NCBI RefSeq assembly: GCF_000372725.1
Contig: NW_005201791.1
Location: 179,788 to 214,525 of the forward strand
DNA: 34,738 bases
Source of the DNA: Emiliania huxleyi CCMP1516
Lineage: Eukaryota
Reading direction: 5' to 3'
The position numbers and the translations under genes are program-made. Position 1 is the first letter of the stretch. The number at the start of each line of letters is the position of its first letter. Below, in pieces: positions 17,646 to 33,556 of this stretch. The notes beneath the pieces are model-generated. The model was not told the DNA's origin. It saw only the letters and a list, made by a program, of their open reading frames with translations, and ran no database searches.

Positions 17646-19191
17646 CGTGGCTGGCAGAGGAGCGCATCAATCGCTTCTTGCGCTCTCATCCGGTCCGTGA
17701 GCTCGACATAGCTCTGGTTGCTTCGCCGCCCCGGCAACCACTCATTCTTGCCGCTCTTTGGGTCGATCGAGTTGACGCCGTCGCACTGCGTGCACTCGCT
17801 CAAGCCCACGCCCTCGCGGCTGACTCCGCGCACCGCTAGGAGGGCGGCTAGCGGGTCGTAGCTGGAGCGGCCTCCCGGGCCCCACCCCCAGCCCGCCCGG
17901 TCGCGAAAGTCCATCAGGGCGTGCCTAGAGTCCACTCCGTAAGGCCGCGTCACCTGTGTCGCTGGTCGCGTGGGCGCGTGGAACTACTTTGCTCGCTACG
18001 AGGAGGGCGTGCCGGCACGGGTTGGCCGGCGCTGCGCACAGCTCCATCACCGCGCCAGTCCGCACCACGTCCCCGTCGCGGAACCCGAGGTAGATGGTAC
18101 GGACGGACGGCGGCACGTTTGCTGCGACGAAAGAGGACGCGGCTGCGGCGGTCGCCCTGGAGACGGCGTCCGCGCCGTTGAAACAGCCGCACGCATTGCA
18201 CTCGGCGAAGCGAGGCCCGCTCGTCGGGTAGTCTCCCGCCATGATTGAGAGGAGAGCCACCTTTTCGGCCACCAAAGCGTAGCCTACAGGGGAGGCTCTC
18301 AGAGACAGTAACGAGCACTTCTCCACGTGTTAGGCCGCTGCTTGATGAGGGAGAGGGGCCGTCCAAGGGGCTATGCGCGTCGGGGCCCGAGCGAAGCAAG
18401 AGCTCCAGATTCGTCAGCAGACCGACAGACGCGATTGTGACTGAACGCGGCGGCGAGGCGGCGAGCACGCGCCGGTACACGTCGACGGCGTCCGGCACCT
18501 GTGAGGCGTTCCGGATCGGCGAAGGGAAGGCTTTCAGGACACTGTCGACAAACGTGAGCGGAGGCTCTCCCGCCAGCGTCAGCCCAGACCCCTTGTACGC
18601 GCCAATCGGTATGTGGTCGCGGCCGTAGAAGTGGTTCACCACAGAGATGACGCCTGCTCCTGCGGGCGGCGCGCTGTCCTGCACAACTGCGAGCAGCTCC
18701 ACCTCGCCGTTGTCCGCCAGCGCATGGAGGGCGCACAAGGCAACGACGTCGTCGACGTCGCGGCAAGCGCCACACCCCATGTCGGTGTCAAGGATGAGCC
18801 TCACGGCCGGCGGCGAAGTTGGTGGTTGCAGCCATGGCGGTGCTGGCGGCACTGACAATACTGACGGGTGTGCCGGCACCCAAGAACTTGTCGTCGACGC
18901 TTCCGGCTTCATTCGGCAGACGACTGCGCCCGGTAACGGGACGGTCCTTTGGATGGCTTCGCTGTGAAGCTCGCATTTACTGTACTGGCCCCGGCCACCC
19001 AGGCGGGAGTATTCGTAGGCGAGGCATTCTGACCCGGCCTGGATGCACAGCACCGAACAACGCTCCTCGCTCAGATCCCAGTGCTCCTGCATCAGGCTGC
19101 TGTTGCCTGCGGCACAGGCTCCCATGCCGTGGTTGTGTCCCGGACGCCTCCAGTAGCCGAGCGCATTCGCCAACAACAACAACAAACCCAT
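16238..19191 (-). CDS. Secreted multidomain protein: signal peptide, PAN/Apple-like domain, nucleoside hydrolase domain, poly-Pro linker, putative five-bladed beta-propeller glycosidase-like domain (~929 aa)
   Basis: Exons 19191-18360, 18283-18013, 17924-16238 total 2790 nt in frame, with two GC-AG introns. MGLLLLLANALG leader; CxxxC...CLAYEY...CELH PAN pattern; LILDTDMG...DVDDVVAL, VTIASVGLLTNL, IMAG and RSSYDPL of IU-type nucleoside hydrolases. The C-terminal repeats FVHSPTVL, ACEPAVL, YGIGQPS, HHNPSF resemble propeller blades (less certain). Confidence 0.82.
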
Positions 19192-20538
19192 CGTGATTTT
19201 AGGCGCCTTCGTTGACCAGGGGCACCTGCGAGGCGCGAGAGGCGCAGCGGAGGGTGGCAGCGGCGTGTTTGGCAATGCTGGCTGCGGCAAAGGCGGCGCC
19301 GCTGGTGGCCCGCTGCAACGGACTCGGGGCGCCGTGGGAACGCGCCGTGGGGGTGTGCGTGCGTGTGGGGAGAGGGCGGTGAAGAGAGCCTGCCTCGCGC
19401 AAGGGCAGCAGAGAGAGAAGAGCTTGCGAGGTTGTGTGGGTCGGGTCGGGTGGGGTGCGGTGTTCTCTGTTCTCGAGGTGGATATCCTTTGGCCGCGTTG
19501 GGTAGCGAGGATTGGTGTAACCCGAGCCACGGAGGCGTGTTTTCTGGCGGCCGACCGTCAGTGCACGGAGTTGCCACTTCTCCGACTGCCCCGGCTAGTT
19601 CCCGAGGTCGTCGGGTGTGACCCCTTCGTCCCCCGAGACCTAGCGCGGGTGGGTTGGAGGGGGCTCGCCCCGTTCCTCCCCATCGGGCCGCGTGAGCGGC
19701 CTCGCCTCGCAGATTCGTTTTTCGCGCCTGGGTCAGGCGCGCGGGGCATCCCCCGGGTCGCTCGACCAGCGATCCGAAGAGTGGCCGCTATGCGAGGGAA
19801 AGAGCGGGGCCCACGGGGTACGCCTCCGTCCGGCCCCCTCCGAGGGGGGAAGGGAATTGTGGGGTCCCCACGGGCGCCTCAGTTCGGCCCTCCCGAGGGG
19901 GGGGAGGGGAGCAAGGGGGTGGGGGGATCGGGGCGGGGGGGGAGGGGTCTCGGGTTTCGTGTGGCTAATACTTGCCTTTCGGAGAGGGGCCTCAGTGCAG
20001 GCGATCCAGGGCAAGCCGGCTCAGCCCGACGTCTTCCCCTCCTCCCCTCGAGGCAGCGAGTGGCAGCGAGAGGAGGTATCGAGCGCCTATGCTCTGATGG
20101 TGTGCGCGGATGGTGGCAGGCTCGGGCGCGTGGGCGGGCGGGCGGGCGGGCGGGCGGGCAGGCGGACGAGCGGGCGGGTGGGTTGGCGTGGACGGAGCAC
20201 AACAGCAGGGGGGGGGAGGGGGGGGGGGGGGGGCATCAGTTAACAGCGTACTAAGTCGAGAGCAACAGCAGCAGCGCCCCAAACGAGGCAGGCCAGCAGC
20301 AGCAGCGGCCTCGCCTCCTGCGGTGTCTAACTCTTGCAGTCTATCTAGGCGGCCGCGAGGTTAATATACCAAATAATGGTGTCAAAACACCGGGGGGTGG
20401 TCGGTGCGCAGGCACCTGAGGGGCTTAGCGCCGAGCGCGCAGCCGGCTCGACGTCAGTCCCTCCACAACACACCGCGCTCCACTTGACATCACCTTGACT
20501 CTCTCTCGACTAAGCACTGCCTCCCACTCTCCCTCTCT

Positions 20539-21997: not shown

Positions 21998-23704
21998 TCA
22001 AACCCCCTGCCACTCACGAATCTGCCGGCGCAGCGTGTGGTTGGGGGCGAGGAAGCTGTGCACGAGCGCCTCGCCCGTCATCGGGCTCGTCGACTTGGTC
22101 GCGAGCCAGCGCTCGATTGCCGACCGCTCGTACGAATGCCCGTCCGCCGCCATCACCGGGTCACTCATGAGCTCGGTCGTGATCGGGCAGATGAAGTCGG
22201 CCGGCGGCTCCTCCTCCCTCGGAGCCGGCGCCTCTGCAGCCGAGGACGGCCCTTGCGCCTCCGCCGCCCGCCTCCCCTCCTCCAGCCTCGCGCTCTCCTC
22301 GAGCGCCGCCGCAAGCTCCGCCTCCTCCGTCGCCGCCACCGCCTCCTCCTCCGCCTCCTCTGCCGGCGCCTCGGGCTCTTGCGACGGCCCAGCGCCTCCC
22401 CCGCCGCCCTGCTTCTTCTTCTTGCCCCTCTTCTTGGCCGTCTTCTTCTCCTCGGCGCGCTTCTCCGCCTCTGCCTCTGACAGCAGCGCCGCCGCAGCCT
22501 CCTCGGCCGCCCTCTCGGCCTCCACCCTCTCTGCCGCCGCCCTCTCGGCCACTGCCCTCTCCACCCTCGCCTCAATCTCTGCTCTCTTCGCCTCCCTCGC
22601 CGCCGCCACAAGTGCGCGCTCGCACTCGCCGTGGCCCTCCTCCTTGGCCAGCTGCAGCGCCGTCTCGCCGCTCGCAGCAGTGCGCGCCGCTGTGTCTGCG
22701 CCCGCCCGCAGCAGGCAGAGCACGACGGCGGAGTGGCCTTCCAGGCACGCAACGTGCAGGGGTGTGAAGCCGTCCTCCGCGGCTCGGTCGACCGCCGCGC
22801 TGGCGCCGAGGAGCAGCCGAACGCACTCGAGCTGGCCCTGCTGGCTCGCGATGTACAGCGGCGTGGCGCCGTCCTCCTTGGCTTGGTTGACCGCCGCACC
22901 CGCTTCGAGGAGCAGCCGGGCGACGTCGAGGTGGCCCTTCTGGCACGCGATGAACAGCGGCGTGGCGCCGTCCGCCTTGGCTTGGTTGATCGCCGCGCTG
23001 GCCTCGAGAAGCAGCTGGGCGCACTCGAGGTGGCCCTTCTCGCACGCGATGAACAGCGGCGTGGCATCGTTGATGTTGGCCTGGTTAACCGCCGCGCCAG
23101 CAGCGAGAAGCAGCCGGACGATCACGAGGTGACGCTCCTGGCACGCGACGTACAGCGGCGTGAAGCCGTCAGCGTCTGCTTGGTTCACCGCAGCGCCAGC
23201 GGCGAGCAACAGACGGACGCAGTCGATCTGGCCATCCAGGCTCGCAACGCTCAGCGGCGTGGTGCCGTCATTCTCGGCTTGGTTGACCGCCGCGCTGCCC
23301 TCGAGAAGCAGCTGGGCGCACTCGAGCTGGCCCTCCTGGCACGCGATGGACAGCGGCGTGGCGCCGTTGACGTCGGCTTGGTCGGCGTCAGCGTTGGCGC
23401 CGAGGAGCAGCCCGGCGCACTCGAGCTGGCCCTCTTGGCACGCGACGAACAGCGCGGAGCAGCCACGGCCCGTCGTCGCCGCCACGCTCGCGCCGCTCTC
23501 GAGCAGCAGCCGCACCGCGTCGGCCTGCCCGTGCCGAGCGGCGATAATCAGCAGCGTAAAGTGGTCCTCGGCCTCGAGCCGCGCGTCGAGCAGGGCCGTG
23601 AGCGCCCGACCACGCGTCCACCCGGCGAGGAGGGCGCGCAGCAAGGTCAAATCGCCCCGGCGCAGGTCGGCGATCAAGGTCGGGCTGATGGCGTTCATGT
23701 GCAT
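21998..23704 (-). CDS. Ankyrin-repeat U-box E3 ubiquitin ligase, intronless
   Basis: Nine full plus one partial 33-aa ankyrin repeats (G.TPL.IAC..G.LE...LLL), an Ala/Glu coiled coil, a Lys-rich patch, and a C-terminal U-box PADFICPITTELMSDPVMAADGHSYERSAIERWL...SPMTGE.L....LAPNHTLRRQI. Start taken at ATG 23704 (23698 is an alternative) because the upstream frame runs through a simple repeat. Confidence 0.93.
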   Translation of the reverse strand: MHMNAISPTLIADLRRGDLTLLRALLAGWTRGRALTALLDARLEAEDHFTLLIIAARHGQADAVRLLLESGASVAATTGRGCSALFVACQEGQLECAGLLLGANADADQADVNGATPLSIACQEGQLECAQLLLEGSAAVNQAENDGTTPLSVASLDGQIDCVRLLLAAGAAVNQADADGFTPLYVACQERHLVIVRLLLAAGAAVNQANINDATPLFIACEKGHLECAQLLLEASAAINQAKADGATPLFIACQKGHLDVARLLLEAGAAVNQAKEDGATPLYIASQQGQLECVRLLLGASAAVDRAAEDGFTPLHVACLEGHSAVVLCLLRAGADTAARTAASGETALQLAKEEGHGECERALVAAAREAKRAEIEARVERAVAERAAAERVEAERAAEEAAAALLSEAEAEKRAEEKKTAKKRGKKKKQGGGGGAGPSQEPEAPAEEAEEEAVAATEEAELAAALEESARLEEGRRAAEAQGPSSAAEAPAPREEEPPADFICPITTELMSDPVMAADGHSYERSAIERWLATKSTSPMTGEALVHSFLAPNHTLRRQIREWQGV

Positions 23705-23753
23705 GCCTCGGTGGCGCGGGGCTCGGGAGTTCACAGCCTTGTTATCGGCCCAG

Positions 23754-23856
23754 AGGGGTGGTTGAGGGGTTGAGGGGTTGAGGGGTTGAGGCCCCCCCTC
23801 CACCATCTGGTTGGCGGTTGAGACCCCCCGTCAACCCTTTAGTTGAGGGTTGAGGC
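23754..23856. repeat. (GGTTGAGG)-type 7-mer tandem and inverted repeats
   Basis: ggttgaggggttgaggggttgaggggttgagg plus scattered direct and inverted copies between the divergent U-box and kinase genes. Confidence 0.7.
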
Positions 23857-24029: not shown

Positions 24030-24989
24030 CAAAGCGATGGCCTACCAGGCTCAGTGCCCATCCCGCCGGACGCAGCGCCAGTGTCGGAGGGGCTGATTCG
24101 CTATGAAGAGATCAAGTTCGGGAAGCAGCTCGGCGAGGGCAGCTTCGGCATGGTCTACCAGGCCGTGTGGAAGCACGACGACGTCGCCGTCAAAAAGATC
24201 AAGGACAAGCTGCTCCGTAAGAATGCCGAGGCCGCAAAGGTCGAGTTCATCAAGGAGCTCAAGCTGCTGCGCTCGCTCACAAATCGTCACGTGGTGCGCT
24301 TCTGCCAAGCGAAGACTTTATACGCCACGCGCAACATACGCACTCCTCTCGTACTCCTCTCGTTGTCTCCGCCCGATGCGCCGCCCGCGCTCTCATCATC
24401 CGGCTCACTCTCTGATGGAGCAGGTGCAGTGCTTTGGCGGTCACGCGTCCGGAAATCACTTCTTCATCGTCACTGAGCTCATGGAGCGCGGCTCCCTCGC
24501 GGACTGCCTCGACAAGCACGCAGACGAGTTTGCGTGGGCACGCCTCGGAAAGAAGGTGCTGCTTGGCGCCGCCAAGGGCCTGCTTCACATCCACAGCTGC
24601 GATATGGTGCACTTTGACATCAAGCCGCTCAACGTGCTCATCAACGAACACAACACGGCAAAGCTCGCCGACGTGGGTCTGGCCAAGAGGCTCACGACAA
24701 CTGTCACCAAGCCCGGCGGGTGGACGCCCGCATATGCCGCGCCGGAGATCCTCAACCGCGAGGGCGCCAACCAGAAGAGCGACATTTTCTCGTTCGGGCT
24801 GATGATATGGCAGGTTTATACGCAGCTCAACAGCCAAGTCTCGGCGACAAATGCGACGCCGACCCGCGCTGGCCGGTGGCGGGGATCCTCACGGGCGCCG
24901 GCACCACACACGGTGGTGCGCTTGCGAAGGAAATGGGCCGCCGCCCTAGCGCAGTGCAGATGAAGGAGGAGCTTGAGCACCAACTTTAG
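24030..24989 (+). pseudogene. TKL-group protein kinase, 5'-truncated with a frameshift (pseudogene or sequence error)
   Basis: LGEGSFGMVY, VAVKK, E of helix C, one intron 24294-24423, IVTELMERGSL, HFDIKPLN, DVG, YAAPE, SDIFSFG. The C-terminus homologous to the 33368-33556 paralog (WPVA.LL.GAG..H.GALA...RRP) is reached only through a frameshift at about 24829. No in-frame ATG precedes the domain. Confidence 0.7.
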
Positions 24990-30162: not shown

Positions 30163-31963
30163 GCGGGTTTGGCGTCGTGTAAGCGGCGGAGTGGAGCCAC
30201 GGAGCCGTCGCCGTCAAGCGGATCAGGCCCTCTCCTCTGCCACCCACAGCCCACGCACCGGGCCCTCTCCTCTCCCCTGGGGTGCCCCCCCCCCCTCCGC
30301 TGCCCTAGCCACCCACTGCCCACCCGCCCCTCTCCTCCCCCAGCCACTGCCCCCCCCTCCGCTGCCCCCGCCTCCCGCTGCCCCCCCCTCCCGCTGCCCC
30401 CCCCACCCACTGCCCACCCACCCGCTGCCCACGAGGCGAGATCACGGTCGAGATCGAGATCACGGTCGAGATCGAGATCACGGTCGAGATGACGGCCGAG
30501 GGTTGTCTGCGGCTGTAGTCCGGAGCTGGTCGACTCGCACGGTGACGAGGCGCGAGCCGAGTTCCGGCGCGCGAGAGATGGCTCGAGATTCCTCGAGATT
30601 CCCCGAGATTCCTCGAGATTCCTCGAGATTTCTCGAGTTCCGGCGCGCGAGCTCGAGCTGCGAGATATGGGGGAGATATGGGGGAGATATGGGAGACGGG
30701 AGTTCCGGCGCGCGAGAGATGGCCCGAGATTCCCCGAGATTGCTCGAGCTGCTCTCCGGTACTCTCGGGAGTATCTCGGGGCCACCTCGCTGTCATCTCG
30801 CTGCCATCTCGCTGTCATCTCGCTGCCATCTCGCTGTCATCTCGCTGCCATCTCGCTGCCGAGGTCTCTAGACACGAGCTCGAGCTACCGCACCACCCAA
30901 GGACCTGAACCCACACCGGGTTCGAGACTCTGGAGGTATGGTACGCGCAGGCACGAGCTAGAGTTGCTCTGCTCCCTGCGGCACCGGCACATCGTCCAGT
31001 GCTACGGCGGCGACGCGGCGCGCGAGCTCTTCATCGTGACCGAGCTGATGGAGCGAGATCCGCGCGAGATCACCCCGAGATTGTCCGAGATCAGGCGCGC
31101 GAGCTCTTCATCGTGACGGAGCTGATGGAGCGAGATCCGCGCGAGATCACCCCGAGATTGTCCGAGATCAGGCGCGCGAGCTCTTCATCGTGACCGAGCT
31201 GATGGAGCGAGATCCGCGCGAGATCACCCCGAGATTGTCCGAGATCAGGCGCGCGAGCTCTTCATCGTGACCGAGCTGATGGAGCGAGGGTCGCTTGAGG
31301 ACTGCCTGCGCGCACACCCCGCCGAGTTCCGGCGCGCGAGAGATGGCCCGAGAGATGGCCCGAGAGATGGGGGAGAGATGGGAGATGTGAGTTCCGGCGC
31401 GCGAGAGATGGCCCGAGATTGCCCGAGATTGCCCGAGATTGCCGAGTTTTGGTGGCAGCGGCTACCACACCATCAAGAACCCTGAACCCACACTGGATTC
31501 GACACTCTCGGGGTATGGTACTAGGTGGGAGCGGCTCGGCCGGCGCGTCCTCCTCGACACAGCAAAGGGGCTCCTCTACTTGCACGGCCGCGGGCTCGTC
31601 CATTTTGACGTCAAGCCACTCAACATCCTCGTCTCGGCGCGCACTCTATCTCCCCACATCTCCCGTATCTCCCCCTCATCTCCCCATATCTCGCAGCCGC
31701 TCGACGTCCTCGTCTCGCACTCCTAGACACGGAACATCTCCCCACATCTCCCGTATCTCCCCCCCTATCTCCCCATACCTCCCATATCTCCCCTGCACTC
31801 CTGTGTCCCAACCCACACTCGAGCGGACCCATACTCCGCTGTACTCGGCAGTGCTCCGCTGTATGCACGGTATTCGCCCCCCTCGTATCCACGCGGTGCT
31901 CTGTATACACTGCACAGCACTGTCCTCCCGCCCCCGAGGCTGGGCACACACCCAACACTCACA

Positions 31964-32117: not shown

Positions 32118-33556
32118 NNNNNNNNNNNNNNNNNNNNNNNNNNNNNNNNNNNNNNNNNNNNNNNNNNNNNNNNNNNNNNNNNNNNNNNNNNNNNNNNNNN
32201 NNNNNNNNNNNNNNNNNNNNNNNNNNNNNNNNNNNNNNNNNNNNNNNNNNNNNNNNNNNNNNNNNNNNNNNNNNNNNNNNNNNNNNNNNNNNNNNNNNNN
32301 NNNNNNNNNNNNNNNNNNNNNNNNNNNNNNNNNNNNNNNNNNNNNNNNNNNNNNNNNNNNNNNNNNNNNNNNNNNNNNNNNNNNNNNNNNNNNNNNNNNN
32401 NNNNNNNNNNNNNNNNNNNNNNNNNNNNNNNNNNNNNNNNNNNNNNNNNNNNNNNNNNNNNNNNNNNNNNNNNNNNNNNNNNNNNNNNNNNNNNNNNNNN
32501 NNNNNNNNNNNNNNNNNNNNNNNNNNNNNNNNNNNNNNNNNNNNNNNNNNNNNNNNNNNNNNNNNNNNNNNNNNNNNNNNNNNNNNNNNNNNNNNNNNNN
32601 NNNNNNNNNNNNNNNNNNNNNNNNNNNNNNNNNNNNNNNNNNNNNNNNNNNNNNNNNNNNNNNNNNNNNNNNNNNNNNNNNNNNNNNNNNNNNNNNNNNN
32701 NNNNNNNNNNNNNNNNNNNNNNNNNNNNNNNNNNNNNNNNNNNNNNNNNNNNNNNNNNNNNNNNNNNNNNNNNNNNNNNNNNNNNNNNNNNNNNNNNNNN
32801 NNNNNNNNNNNNNNNNNNNNNNNNNNNNNNNNNNNNNNNNNNNNNNNNNNNNNNNNNNNNNNTGTGGAGAAGGGTACCTTACCCTTACCTTAGGCGCACA
32901 ACGTGGCGAAGCTCTCCGATGTGGGGCTCACCAAGAAGCTCAACAACACGCTCACGCGGCCGGGTGTTTGACGCCCGCCCACGCCGCCCCCGAGATTACC
33001 CGAGATTACCCGAGATTACCCGAGATTAGGCGGCTGGACGCCCGCCTACGCCGCCCCCGAGATTCTGGCGCGGCAGGGCGCCAACGAGACGTCCGACATC
33101 TACTCGTTCGGCCTCGTCGTGTGGCAGGAGCAGCCACTCCCCCGCACCGCCCACAGCACCTGAACCCACACTGGGTTCGGTACGCTGGAGGTAGGGTGGC
33201 AGCGGCACACACTCGCCCGGAAAGGAGTAGGCTAGCGCAGTCGTGTGTGTGTGTCATGAGGGGAGCGTCCACCCGTGTCGCTCCGCTGGCGGTGGCGACA
33301 CGCCCGCTTCACCTCCTTGCCCCGCGGCTGCACACGATCATCCGTTCACCGCGGCTCTCTTCGGCAGGTGTATACGCACCGAGTGCCATCGCCCTTCGAG
33401 CCCTGCCGGGTGGCGGCCAGCTGGCCCGTCGCGCCGCTGCTCGTCGGCGCGGGGCGCGAGCACGAAGGGGCGCTCGCGCTGGACAAGGAGAGGCGGCCGA
33501 GCGGCGTCCATCTCAAGGACGAGCTCGACGCTCTCGCCGCGGGCGGCGGGCCTTGA
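30163..33556 (+). CDS. TKL-group protein kinase domain, paralog of 24030-24989, split by many introns; one in-frame TAA near a gap
   Basis: Exons 30163-30226, 30519-30566, 30951-31017, 31249-31331, 31525-31636, 32894-32963, 33030-33127, 33368-33556 give GGFGVV*AAEWSHGAVAVKRI...EFRHELELL...IVTELMERGSL...HFDVKPLNILV...LSDVGL...GGWTPAYAAPE...SDIYSFG...RRPS. TAA at 30180-30182 replaces the expected Tyr and lies about 30 nt from a gap edge. Confidence 0.8.
30886..30943 (+). mobile_element. ~58-bp hairpin/MITE-like intronic element (also at 31463-31520 and about 33138-33198)
   Basis: tacc.cacc...cctgaacccacac.gg.ttcg...ggtatggta: imperfect terminal inverted repeats and an inner GAACCC/GGGTTC stem, found in three different introns. 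Confidence 0.65.
31018..31248 (+). repeat. Three near-identical 77-bp units, each a complete GC...AG intron module
   Basis: Units start at 31018, 31095 and 31172; the true exon starts at 31249 with the same first 40 nt. Confidence 0.9.
32863..32893 (+). mobile_element. SINE-like (CCTTA)n-tailed element, 3' end of intronic copy 4 (rest in gap)
   Basis: tgtggagaagggtaccttacccttaccttag; the TAG is the acceptor for exon 32894. Confidence 0.7.

What the first reader, a model, noticed from the sequence alone, without database searches (positions are those of the whole stretch)
32964..33065. The 10-mer filler starts in register with the end of the duplicated exon sequence, like telomerase-type primer extension
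Seen: the exon reads ...gccgcccccgagattCTG and its intronic copy reads ...gccgcccccgagatt followed by (acccgagatt)x3 and AG, so the repeat continues from an exon-encoded match to itself. Likewise at about 31057 the copy ends ...ggagcgag and continues atccgcgcgagatc, and at 8926 ...gagctac continues atctccccacatctcc. Filler units across the window (CTCGGGCCAT, CCCCATATCT, CCCGAGATTG, ATCTCGCTGC, CGATCTCGGG) share an ATCTC/GAGAT core, a ~10-bp period and occur on both strands. Inference: a templated polymerase may add these units to a broken 3' end annealed by microhomology. Slippage plus selection for a helical-period motif is the alternative.
Basis: inference. Interest (0 to 1): 0.7.

Follow-up and report, generated by a model that had tools for sequence, protein, structure and literature searches.

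The report
Repeat-filled duplications that make new introns
In this coccolithophore alga, a 66-base intron consists of a copy of the next exon's start plus three copies of a 10-base repeat, dozens of similar inserts meet their target with short in-register matches at both ends, and the repeats were likely copied in from an outside template, possibly an RNA, while a staggered DNA break was repaired.

Summary
Observation confirmed and generalised. 32964-33029 is a GT..AG intron of a kinase gene, spliced in RNA of two studies. It is a 30/35 copy of the downstream exon start plus (ACCCGAGATT)x3 and AG; an in-window paralog lacks it. The genome is Emiliania huxleyi-like. In 66 such events from the window and metagenome loci, duplications are 14-41 bp. 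In-register microhomology averages 1.95 nt at one junction and 1.85 at the other, against 0.71 by chance. Only this site reaches 9 nt, so slippage from an exon-encoded unit fails as a general cause: the filler is imported. One end prefers the entry word GGCGAG, which internal units lack. A telomere-repeat filler has the same build. Against a simple telomerase model: both ends match, young fillers mix units, many filler families exist, and no template or reverse transcriptase was found. Best reading: templated extension at a staggered break (RNA template about 0.45, DNA arrays about 0.35). The scan noted similar duplication-plus-filler introns before in other protists, including a haptophyte. 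New variant of break-repair intron gain.

The parts
32964..33029 (+). 66-nt GT..AG spliceosomal intron in a protein kinase gene
   Evidence: RNA contigs of X11 and X15 (two studies) skip exactly 66 nt, GT..AG; no such joint is listed for DNA runs X4 and X8. The spliced frame is open and the unspliced one has a stop.
32964..32997 (+). Intronic copy of the downstream exon start (left copy of the duplication); supplies the GT donor
   Evidence: 30 of 35 positions identical to 33030-33064
32989..32997 (+). 9-nt in-register overlap between the end of the copy and the repeat phase
   Evidence: chance 5.5e-4 per junction
32998..33029 (+). Filler: three 10-mer units plus AG, which supplies the acceptor
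   Evidence: this unit is the commonest of the family, 93 of 216 full units
33030..33064 (+). Original target (right copy), coding GGWTPAYAAPEI of the kinase
32894..32963 (+). Upstream kinase exon
   Evidence: covered by RNA contigs up to the joint; aligns to the paralog
31017..31288 (+). Same gene: 41-bp duplication plus 36-bp filler, amplified to three 77-bp units; 5-nt overlap at 31053-31057; splicing not tested
31315..31450 (+). Same gene: nested fillers; 26 nt shared with 30556 and 11 nt with the exon at 31016, a hint of local DNA templating
8905..9003 (+). 22-bp duplication (8905-8926, 8982-9003) around an ATCTCCCCAT-type filler; overlaps of 2 and 3 nt; splicing not tested
2096..2189 (+). 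22-bp duplication around a 10-mer filler; removable as a GC..AG intron; splicing not tested
24424..24816 (+). Paralogous kinase exon with no intron at the matching positions (comparison only)
   Evidence: Pfam Pkinase 1e-26; alignment; 99% to an E. huxleyi protein

Best explanation
The intron is an exon-start duplication with a family repeat between the two copies, likely left when two staggered nicks opened the DNA and a polymerase extended one 3' overhang on an outside template, probably a short RNA read by a reverse transcriptase. Shown: duplication of 14-41 bp, filler from a shared family and not from the target, 1-6 nt overlaps at both junctions, a preferred entry word at one end, and exact splicing in 4 of 4 inserts tested. 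Inferred: nicks about 25 bp apart give 3' overhangs. One end anneals by 2-4 nt, is extended by about 35-50 nt, rejoins the other end by a second short match, and fill-in duplicates the target. Inferred: in coding DNA the survivors are mostly inserts with AG|GY in the duplication or a filler-supplied AG, and these become introns. Least certain: that the template is RNA with a defined boundary.
For: Overlap means 1.95 (n=58) and 1.85 (n=48) against 0.71; counting the unscored events as zero still gives 1.71 and 1.35 over all 66. 79 of 190 arrays have an exact duplication of 12 nt or more across them, against 0.3 in shuffled flanks. The entry reads GGC|GAG in 18 of 34 events against a 16% background, p about 1e-6, while internal units read CCC in 201 of 267 and GGC in 3. 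After removing 4 possible splice donors it is 14 of 30, p about 1e-4. Copying from genomic arrays would favour CCC entries. A second family with GGG internal units (57 of 71) starts with C before the core in 8 of 16 arrays. A roughly 40-nt filler family has one nearly fixed end and one variable end in 14 listed copies. L045 holds a telomere-repeat filler and a 10-mer filler between three copies of one target. Splicing. AGGY lies in 27 of 66 duplications against a control mean of 14.6.
Against: Overlap is equal at both ends, and the left-right difference in word choice is borderline (Fisher p=0.056). 13 of 29 fillers with a perfect duplication mix unit types. Several unrelated filler families share the build, so each would need its own template. 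No shared unique sequence adjoins the arrays, and none of 64 long ORFs scanned (of 132 found) is a reverse transcriptase. The filler at 31321 shares 26 nt with a site 765 bp upstream, as local DNA templating would give. The entry word could be a nicking preference instead. No empty-site allele was listed in three DNA runs, so gain rests on the footprint and on one paralog.
Confidence: 0.48

Rival explanations
1. Same staggered break, but the 3' end copies DNA: it invades one of the genome's many existing repeat arrays (polymerase-theta-like or abortive gap repair) and returns by microhomology, so filler families spread by templating each other.
For: Equal overlap at both junctions; mixed units in 13 of 29 young fillers; many families; local shared pieces at 30556, 31321 and 31016; very deep repeat cover in DNA runs shows abundant donors. 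Needs no new enzyme.
Against: Donor arrays offer CCC-preceded cores about 67 times more often than GGC-preceded ones (201 vs 3), yet entries are GGC 18 vs CCC 2. It needs an added nicking preference to explain this.
Confidence: 0.33
2. Fillers are short non-autonomous mobile elements (introner-like or tail-only retroposons) inserted whole by an element-encoded nuclease that leaves a long target duplication.
For: Family-level similarity, and one roughly 40-nt family with a nearly fixed acceptor-bearing end. 4 of 66 fillers run from GCGAG to GAGATTAG like a complete mini-intron. About 5% of classified introners are non-LTR (PMC12130899).
Against: Duplication lengths vary continuously from 14 to 41 bp, against 3-9 bp for known introners. 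Ends fall at many phases. No element body was found.
Confidence: 0.11
3. A plain tandem duplication makes the intron, and slippage later expands an exon-encoded near-match, with selection for a helical-period motif.
For: At this one site the exon holds 9 of 10 letters of the unit. Later amplification does occur: three 77-bp copies at 31017.
Against: Only 1 of 58 left and 0 of 48 right junctions hold 9 or more nt. The filler unit equals the family's commonest unit, not the exon's 10-mer. 31 of 66 events have identical copies yet already carry a full filler.
Confidence: 0.04

Closest known systems
Daphnia pulex new introns from repair of staggered double-strand breaks (PMC4202315, passages read)
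   Same: An insertion flanked by a direct repeat of exon sequence becomes an intron; nested secondary events occur.
   Different: Repeats there are 4-12 bp and the introns AT-rich and mostly of unknown source. Here 14-41 bp, with family-specific periodic fillers in register with the target.
Interstitial telomeric sequences inserted at breaks in primates and rodents (PMC2246262, passages read)
   Same: Short tandem repeats in register with the break; 2 nt or more in 49-55% of rodent loci, against 36 of 58 here. Some carry nucleotides from beyond the template.
   Different: There the telomere repeat only, duplication in 4.6-16% of loci, and no introns described in the passages read. Here many non-telomeric units and a long duplication in at least 79 of 190 arrays.
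Introners (PMC9860276; PMC12130899; bioRxiv 10.1101/2020.10.14.339549; passages read)
   Same: Families of similar introns that take splice sites from the target duplication, the insert, or both.
   Different: Fixed short duplications (3-9 bp), often with inverted termini. The 2022 survey removed low-complexity families by design, and none of the three main texts names Emiliania.
Tandem duplications from fill-in at breaks with complementary 3' overhangs (PMC8355091, abstract and outline only)
   Same: Gives a route from a 3'-overhang break to a duplication.
   Different: The abstract describes no imported repeat between the copies; mammalian cells.
Intron gain by tandem duplication of an AG|GT segment (recalled; named in an earlier scan note)
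   Same: AG|GY inside the duplication gives both splice sites, as in L017.
   Different: Here a foreign filler separates the copies and in 8 of 66 events supplies a GAGATTAG end.

Membership tests
Telomerase-type repeat insertion at breaks | Nucleotides at the break in register with the repeat, above chance | tested here: met
Telomerase-type repeat insertion at breaks | Inserted unit is the organism's telomere repeat | tested here: inconclusive
   The 10-mers are not TTAGGG; one TTAGGG filler was found in L045. That TTAGGG is this alga's telomere repeat is recalled; the search found no paper.
Telomerase-type repeat insertion at breaks | Uniform units, with entry phase matching internal units, as from one reiterated template | tested here: not met
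   13 of 29 young fillers mixed; entry GGC vs internal CCC
Telomerase-type repeat insertion at breaks | A template RNA with about 1.5 units and its reverse transcriptase | not testable with these tools
   no genome held; runs were contigs only
Non-LTR retroposon insertion (target-primed reverse transcription) | Target duplication of variable length | tested here: met
   14-41 bp, median 25
Non-LTR retroposon insertion (target-primed reverse transcription) | One fixed end and one variably truncated end | tested here: inconclusive
   left end biased (p 1.6e-7), right end not (p 0.07), difference p 0.056; nearly fixed end in a second family
Non-LTR retroposon insertion (target-primed reverse transcription) | Longer copies with a shared element body or RT gene | tested here: not met
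   none in flanks of the arrays or in 64 ORFs; the sample is only about 0.3 Mb
Introners | Many sequence-similar introns at unrelated sites | tested here: met
   four shown spliced
Introners | Fixed short target duplication (3-9 bp) or none | tested here: not met
Introners | Terminal inverted repeats or other transposon termini | not tested
   no formal test; the fillers are tandem arrays by eye
Staggered-break intron gain (Daphnia type) | Direct repeat of adjacent exon at the opposite intron end | tested here: met
   longer than 4-12 bp
Staggered-break intron gain (Daphnia type) | Presence/absence alleles showing recent gain | tested here: inconclusive
   no empty-site joint listed for 4 introns in three DNA runs; contigs drop rare alleles

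The most novel reading that the evidence does not exclude
Coccolithophores run a dedicated repeat-writing system: a reverse transcriptase with a set of small RNA templates (the telomere RNA being one) adds 35-50 nt of repeat to staggered breaks genome-wide. This has created a large share of the alga's introns and its 10-11-bp intronic repeats, an intron factory that needs no transposon and that introner screens miss because they discard low-complexity families.
Probability: 0.25. Interest if true: 0.9.

Novelty: new variant of a known kind. Interest (0 to 1): 0.7.

Why it matters
The source of most new intron sequence is still unknown (PMC4202315). Here both the site footprint and the imported sequence are legible in dozens of events, in a cultured alga with public genomes, so the mechanism is directly testable. 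It would also explain the short-period repeats that fill this alga's introns as insertion scars rather than microsatellites. It suggests that introner surveys undercount intron gain because they filter such families out.

Tried and rejected
Own genome: none held, so statistics rest on the window plus 121 metagenome loci. Pattern scans of viral contigs and prokaryote genomes found nothing. Of 79 deduplicated candidates, 13 were dropped by hand because the 'duplication' was itself repeat-like or overlapped another event. 18 low-GC or unlike loci were left out of the array counts, and a similar set. Rejected: donor-site selection as the whole cause of the entry word. Rejected: the same preference at the other nick, 8 of 66 against 8.2%. 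Repeat addition at both broken ends: no clean head-to-head filler among duplications of 17 nt or more (one search lists two, one palindromic and one nested). No link between duplication and filler length (rho -0.20, p 0.15, n=50). A strict exact-removal test passed 41 of 66 events and missed the finding's own spliced intron, so it undercounts. ORF 2577-3659 (-) looked to me like a retroelement fragment but had no Pfam match. The idea that duplication length reflects nucleosome linker length is recalled and untested; that paper was not held. The 2013 Emiliania genome paper was not held; that it reports 10-11-bp intronic repeats is recalled. Searches listed no paper describing this build in Emiliania; I saw listings only, and the library lacks most subscription papers. 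The introner papers' supplements were not read and could list this species.

Full report
Setting. The window is GC-rich eukaryotic DNA. A kinase exon at 24424-24816 is 99% identical to an Emiliania huxleyi protein and matches Pfam Pkinase, so the source is E. huxleyi or a very close relative. No whole genome is held.

The site. 32964-33029 is a 66-nt intron. RNA contigs from two studies (X11, X15) skip it exactly, GT..AG, and no such joint is listed for two DNA runs. Spliced, the frame reads through the kinase stretch GGWTPAYAAPEI; unspliced it meets a stop. The intron is a 34-nt copy of the first 35 nt of the next exon (30 of 35 identical; GC in the exon, GT in the copy), three 10-mer units and AG. 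The in-window paralog runs through this position without an intron. That fits a gain, though one paralog cannot exclude a loss. Overlaps in register are 9 nt here, 5 nt at 31057 and 2 nt at 8926. Nine or more arises by chance in 5.5e-4 of simulated junctions; 2 or more in 17%.

A larger sample. A scan of metagenome contigs for the 10-mer array gave 121 loci, 275 kb. Only L017 was checked against runs that hold the window, and they cover it; for the rest, shared repeat families suggest the same species group. A script found 86 duplication-plus-filler candidates of this family, 79 after deduplication. I dropped 13 whose duplication was itself repeat-like or overlapped another event, leaving 66: 61 from 49 loci and 5 from the window. 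Duplications are 14-41 bp (median 25) and fillers 26-190 nt (median 46); 31 of 66 have identical copies. Of 190 arrays with full flanks, 79 have an exact duplication of 12 nt or more across them, against a mean of 0.3 with shuffled flanks.

With arrays turned to read GAGAT, the left junction could be scored in 58 events and the right in 48. Mean overlap is 1.95 and 1.85 nt, against 0.71 for random cut and phase. None of 100,000 null sets reached the left mean (p 1e-5 for the right), and none of 5,000 permutations reached either. Counting unscored events as zero gives 1.71 and 1.35. The excess holds in events with identical copies (1.59 and 2.14). Only the finding's site reaches 9 nt. The target almost never holds a unit, so slippage cannot seed these arrays and the filler is imported.

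Which end primes. The ends do differ in register. Left overlaps of 2 nt or more contain CG in 27 of 36 events against 32% expected (p 1.6e-7); right overlaps in 12 of 25 (p 0.07); the direct comparison gives p 0.056. Where the left junction falls at the first core, the target supplies GGC before GAG in 18 of 34 events, against a 16% background, while internal units read CCC in 201 of 267 and GGC in 3. Removing 4 possible GC donors leaves 14 of 30 (p about 1e-4). RNA places the donor at the start of the duplication in two L017 introns, so the word is not simply a selected donor. In the family with GGG internal units, the first core is preceded by C in 8 of 16 arrays. Inference: a template boundary or a nicking preference sets this end. 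Copying from random genomic arrays predicts CCC entries.

Splicing. Three inserts in L017 (70, 86 and 69 nt) are each removed exactly in one RNA contig, and the last also in a second study; no empty-site joint is listed for DNA runs X2 and X4. AGGY lies in 27 of 66 duplications on the GAGAT strand, against a control mean of 14.6 (maximum 27 in 2,000). This fits selection for inserts that can be spliced.

Other fillers. The same long duplication surrounds several unrelated fillers: 11-mer arrays, AT-rich fillers and a roughly 40-nt element, so the 10-mer is one family of several. In L045 one 28-bp target occurs three times, separated by a 10-mer filler and by a TTAGGG array. This is the best support for the telomerase analogy, but it is a single case and telomeric DNA could also be the template. 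Against a single reiterated template: 13 of 29 fillers with identical copies mix units, and the filler at 31321 shares 26 nt with 30556 and 11 nt with the exon at 31016. No shared element body adjoins the arrays, and no reverse transcriptase is among 64 of 132 long ORFs scanned.

Mechanism. Shown: duplication, imported filler, overlaps at both ends, entry bias, splicing. Inferred: a break with 3' overhangs about 25 nt long, extension of one end on an outside template, rejoining by a second short match, and fill-in. Fill-in at such breaks is known to give duplications (PMC8355091, abstract). I put this general route at about 0.8; within it, an RNA template with a defined boundary at about 0.45-0.48 overall and DNA arrays at about 0.33.

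Comparison. It works like Daphnia staggered-break intron gain (repeats 4-12 bp; passages) combined with in-register repeat insertion as at mammalian interstitial telomeric sites (passages). It fails membership of classical introners on duplication length and of plain telomerase addition on unit uniformity. Eight searches (listings only) showed no description of this build in Emiliania. A Phaeocystis paper notes only high simple-repeat content (passages). The 2013 genome paper could not be read. Earlier scan notes report similar inserts in other protists, including a haptophyte and telomere-repeat fillers; they are unchecked leads and gave me the Daphnia and dinoflagellate references.

Verdict. 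Real, general in the sample, and a new variant of break-repair intron gain with an unidentified template. Interest 0.7.

Noticed in passing
window 33128-33367: The next intron of the same kinase (240 nt) is skipped in both RNA runs; the only placement ending in AG starts with GA, a non-canonical donor.
   Followed up: partly
L045:2030-2320: Three nested events at one site: two 10-mer fillers in opposite orientations and a TTAGGG array, each between copies of 27-28 bp targets.
   Followed up: partly
L013, L015, L018, L027, L034, L041, L043, L049, L058, L105; related pieces at window 893-916 and 1062-1088: A roughly 40-nt filler family (about 1.4 copies of a 28-mer with an internal inverted repeat) with one nearly fixed end that reads as an acceptor; the best candidate for a discrete template.
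   Followed up: partly
L030:395-990 (also L036, L037): A lower-GC organism carries long arrays of the same 10-mer, next to 9-mer GGG-containing arrays and a short TTAGGG run. Loci L005, L028 and L031 show it in yet another repeat context.
   Followed up: no
window 1257-1425, 1647-1723, 2234-2317, 11489-11581, 11947-12047: More duplications around non-GAGAT fillers, in genes that look like a HEN1-type methyltransferase and a nucleobase permease (names recalled from motifs, not tested).
   Followed up: partly
L049:1200 vs L083: Two versions of one site; L049 carries an extra nested insert inside the filler, so secondary events differ between samples.
   Followed up: no
window 2577-3659 (-) and repeats near 3590-4300 and 5120-5790: An ORF fragment and a long direct repeat that look like a mobile-element remnant; no Pfam match.
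   Followed up: partly
window 7980-8280 and 14700-14980: An inverted near-copy of one gene segment, including its 10-mer filler.
   Followed up: no
window 21998-23830 (-) and 17950-19557 (-): An ankyrin-repeat U-box ORF and a nucleoside-hydrolase ORF, both long open frames without such introns.
   Followed up: no
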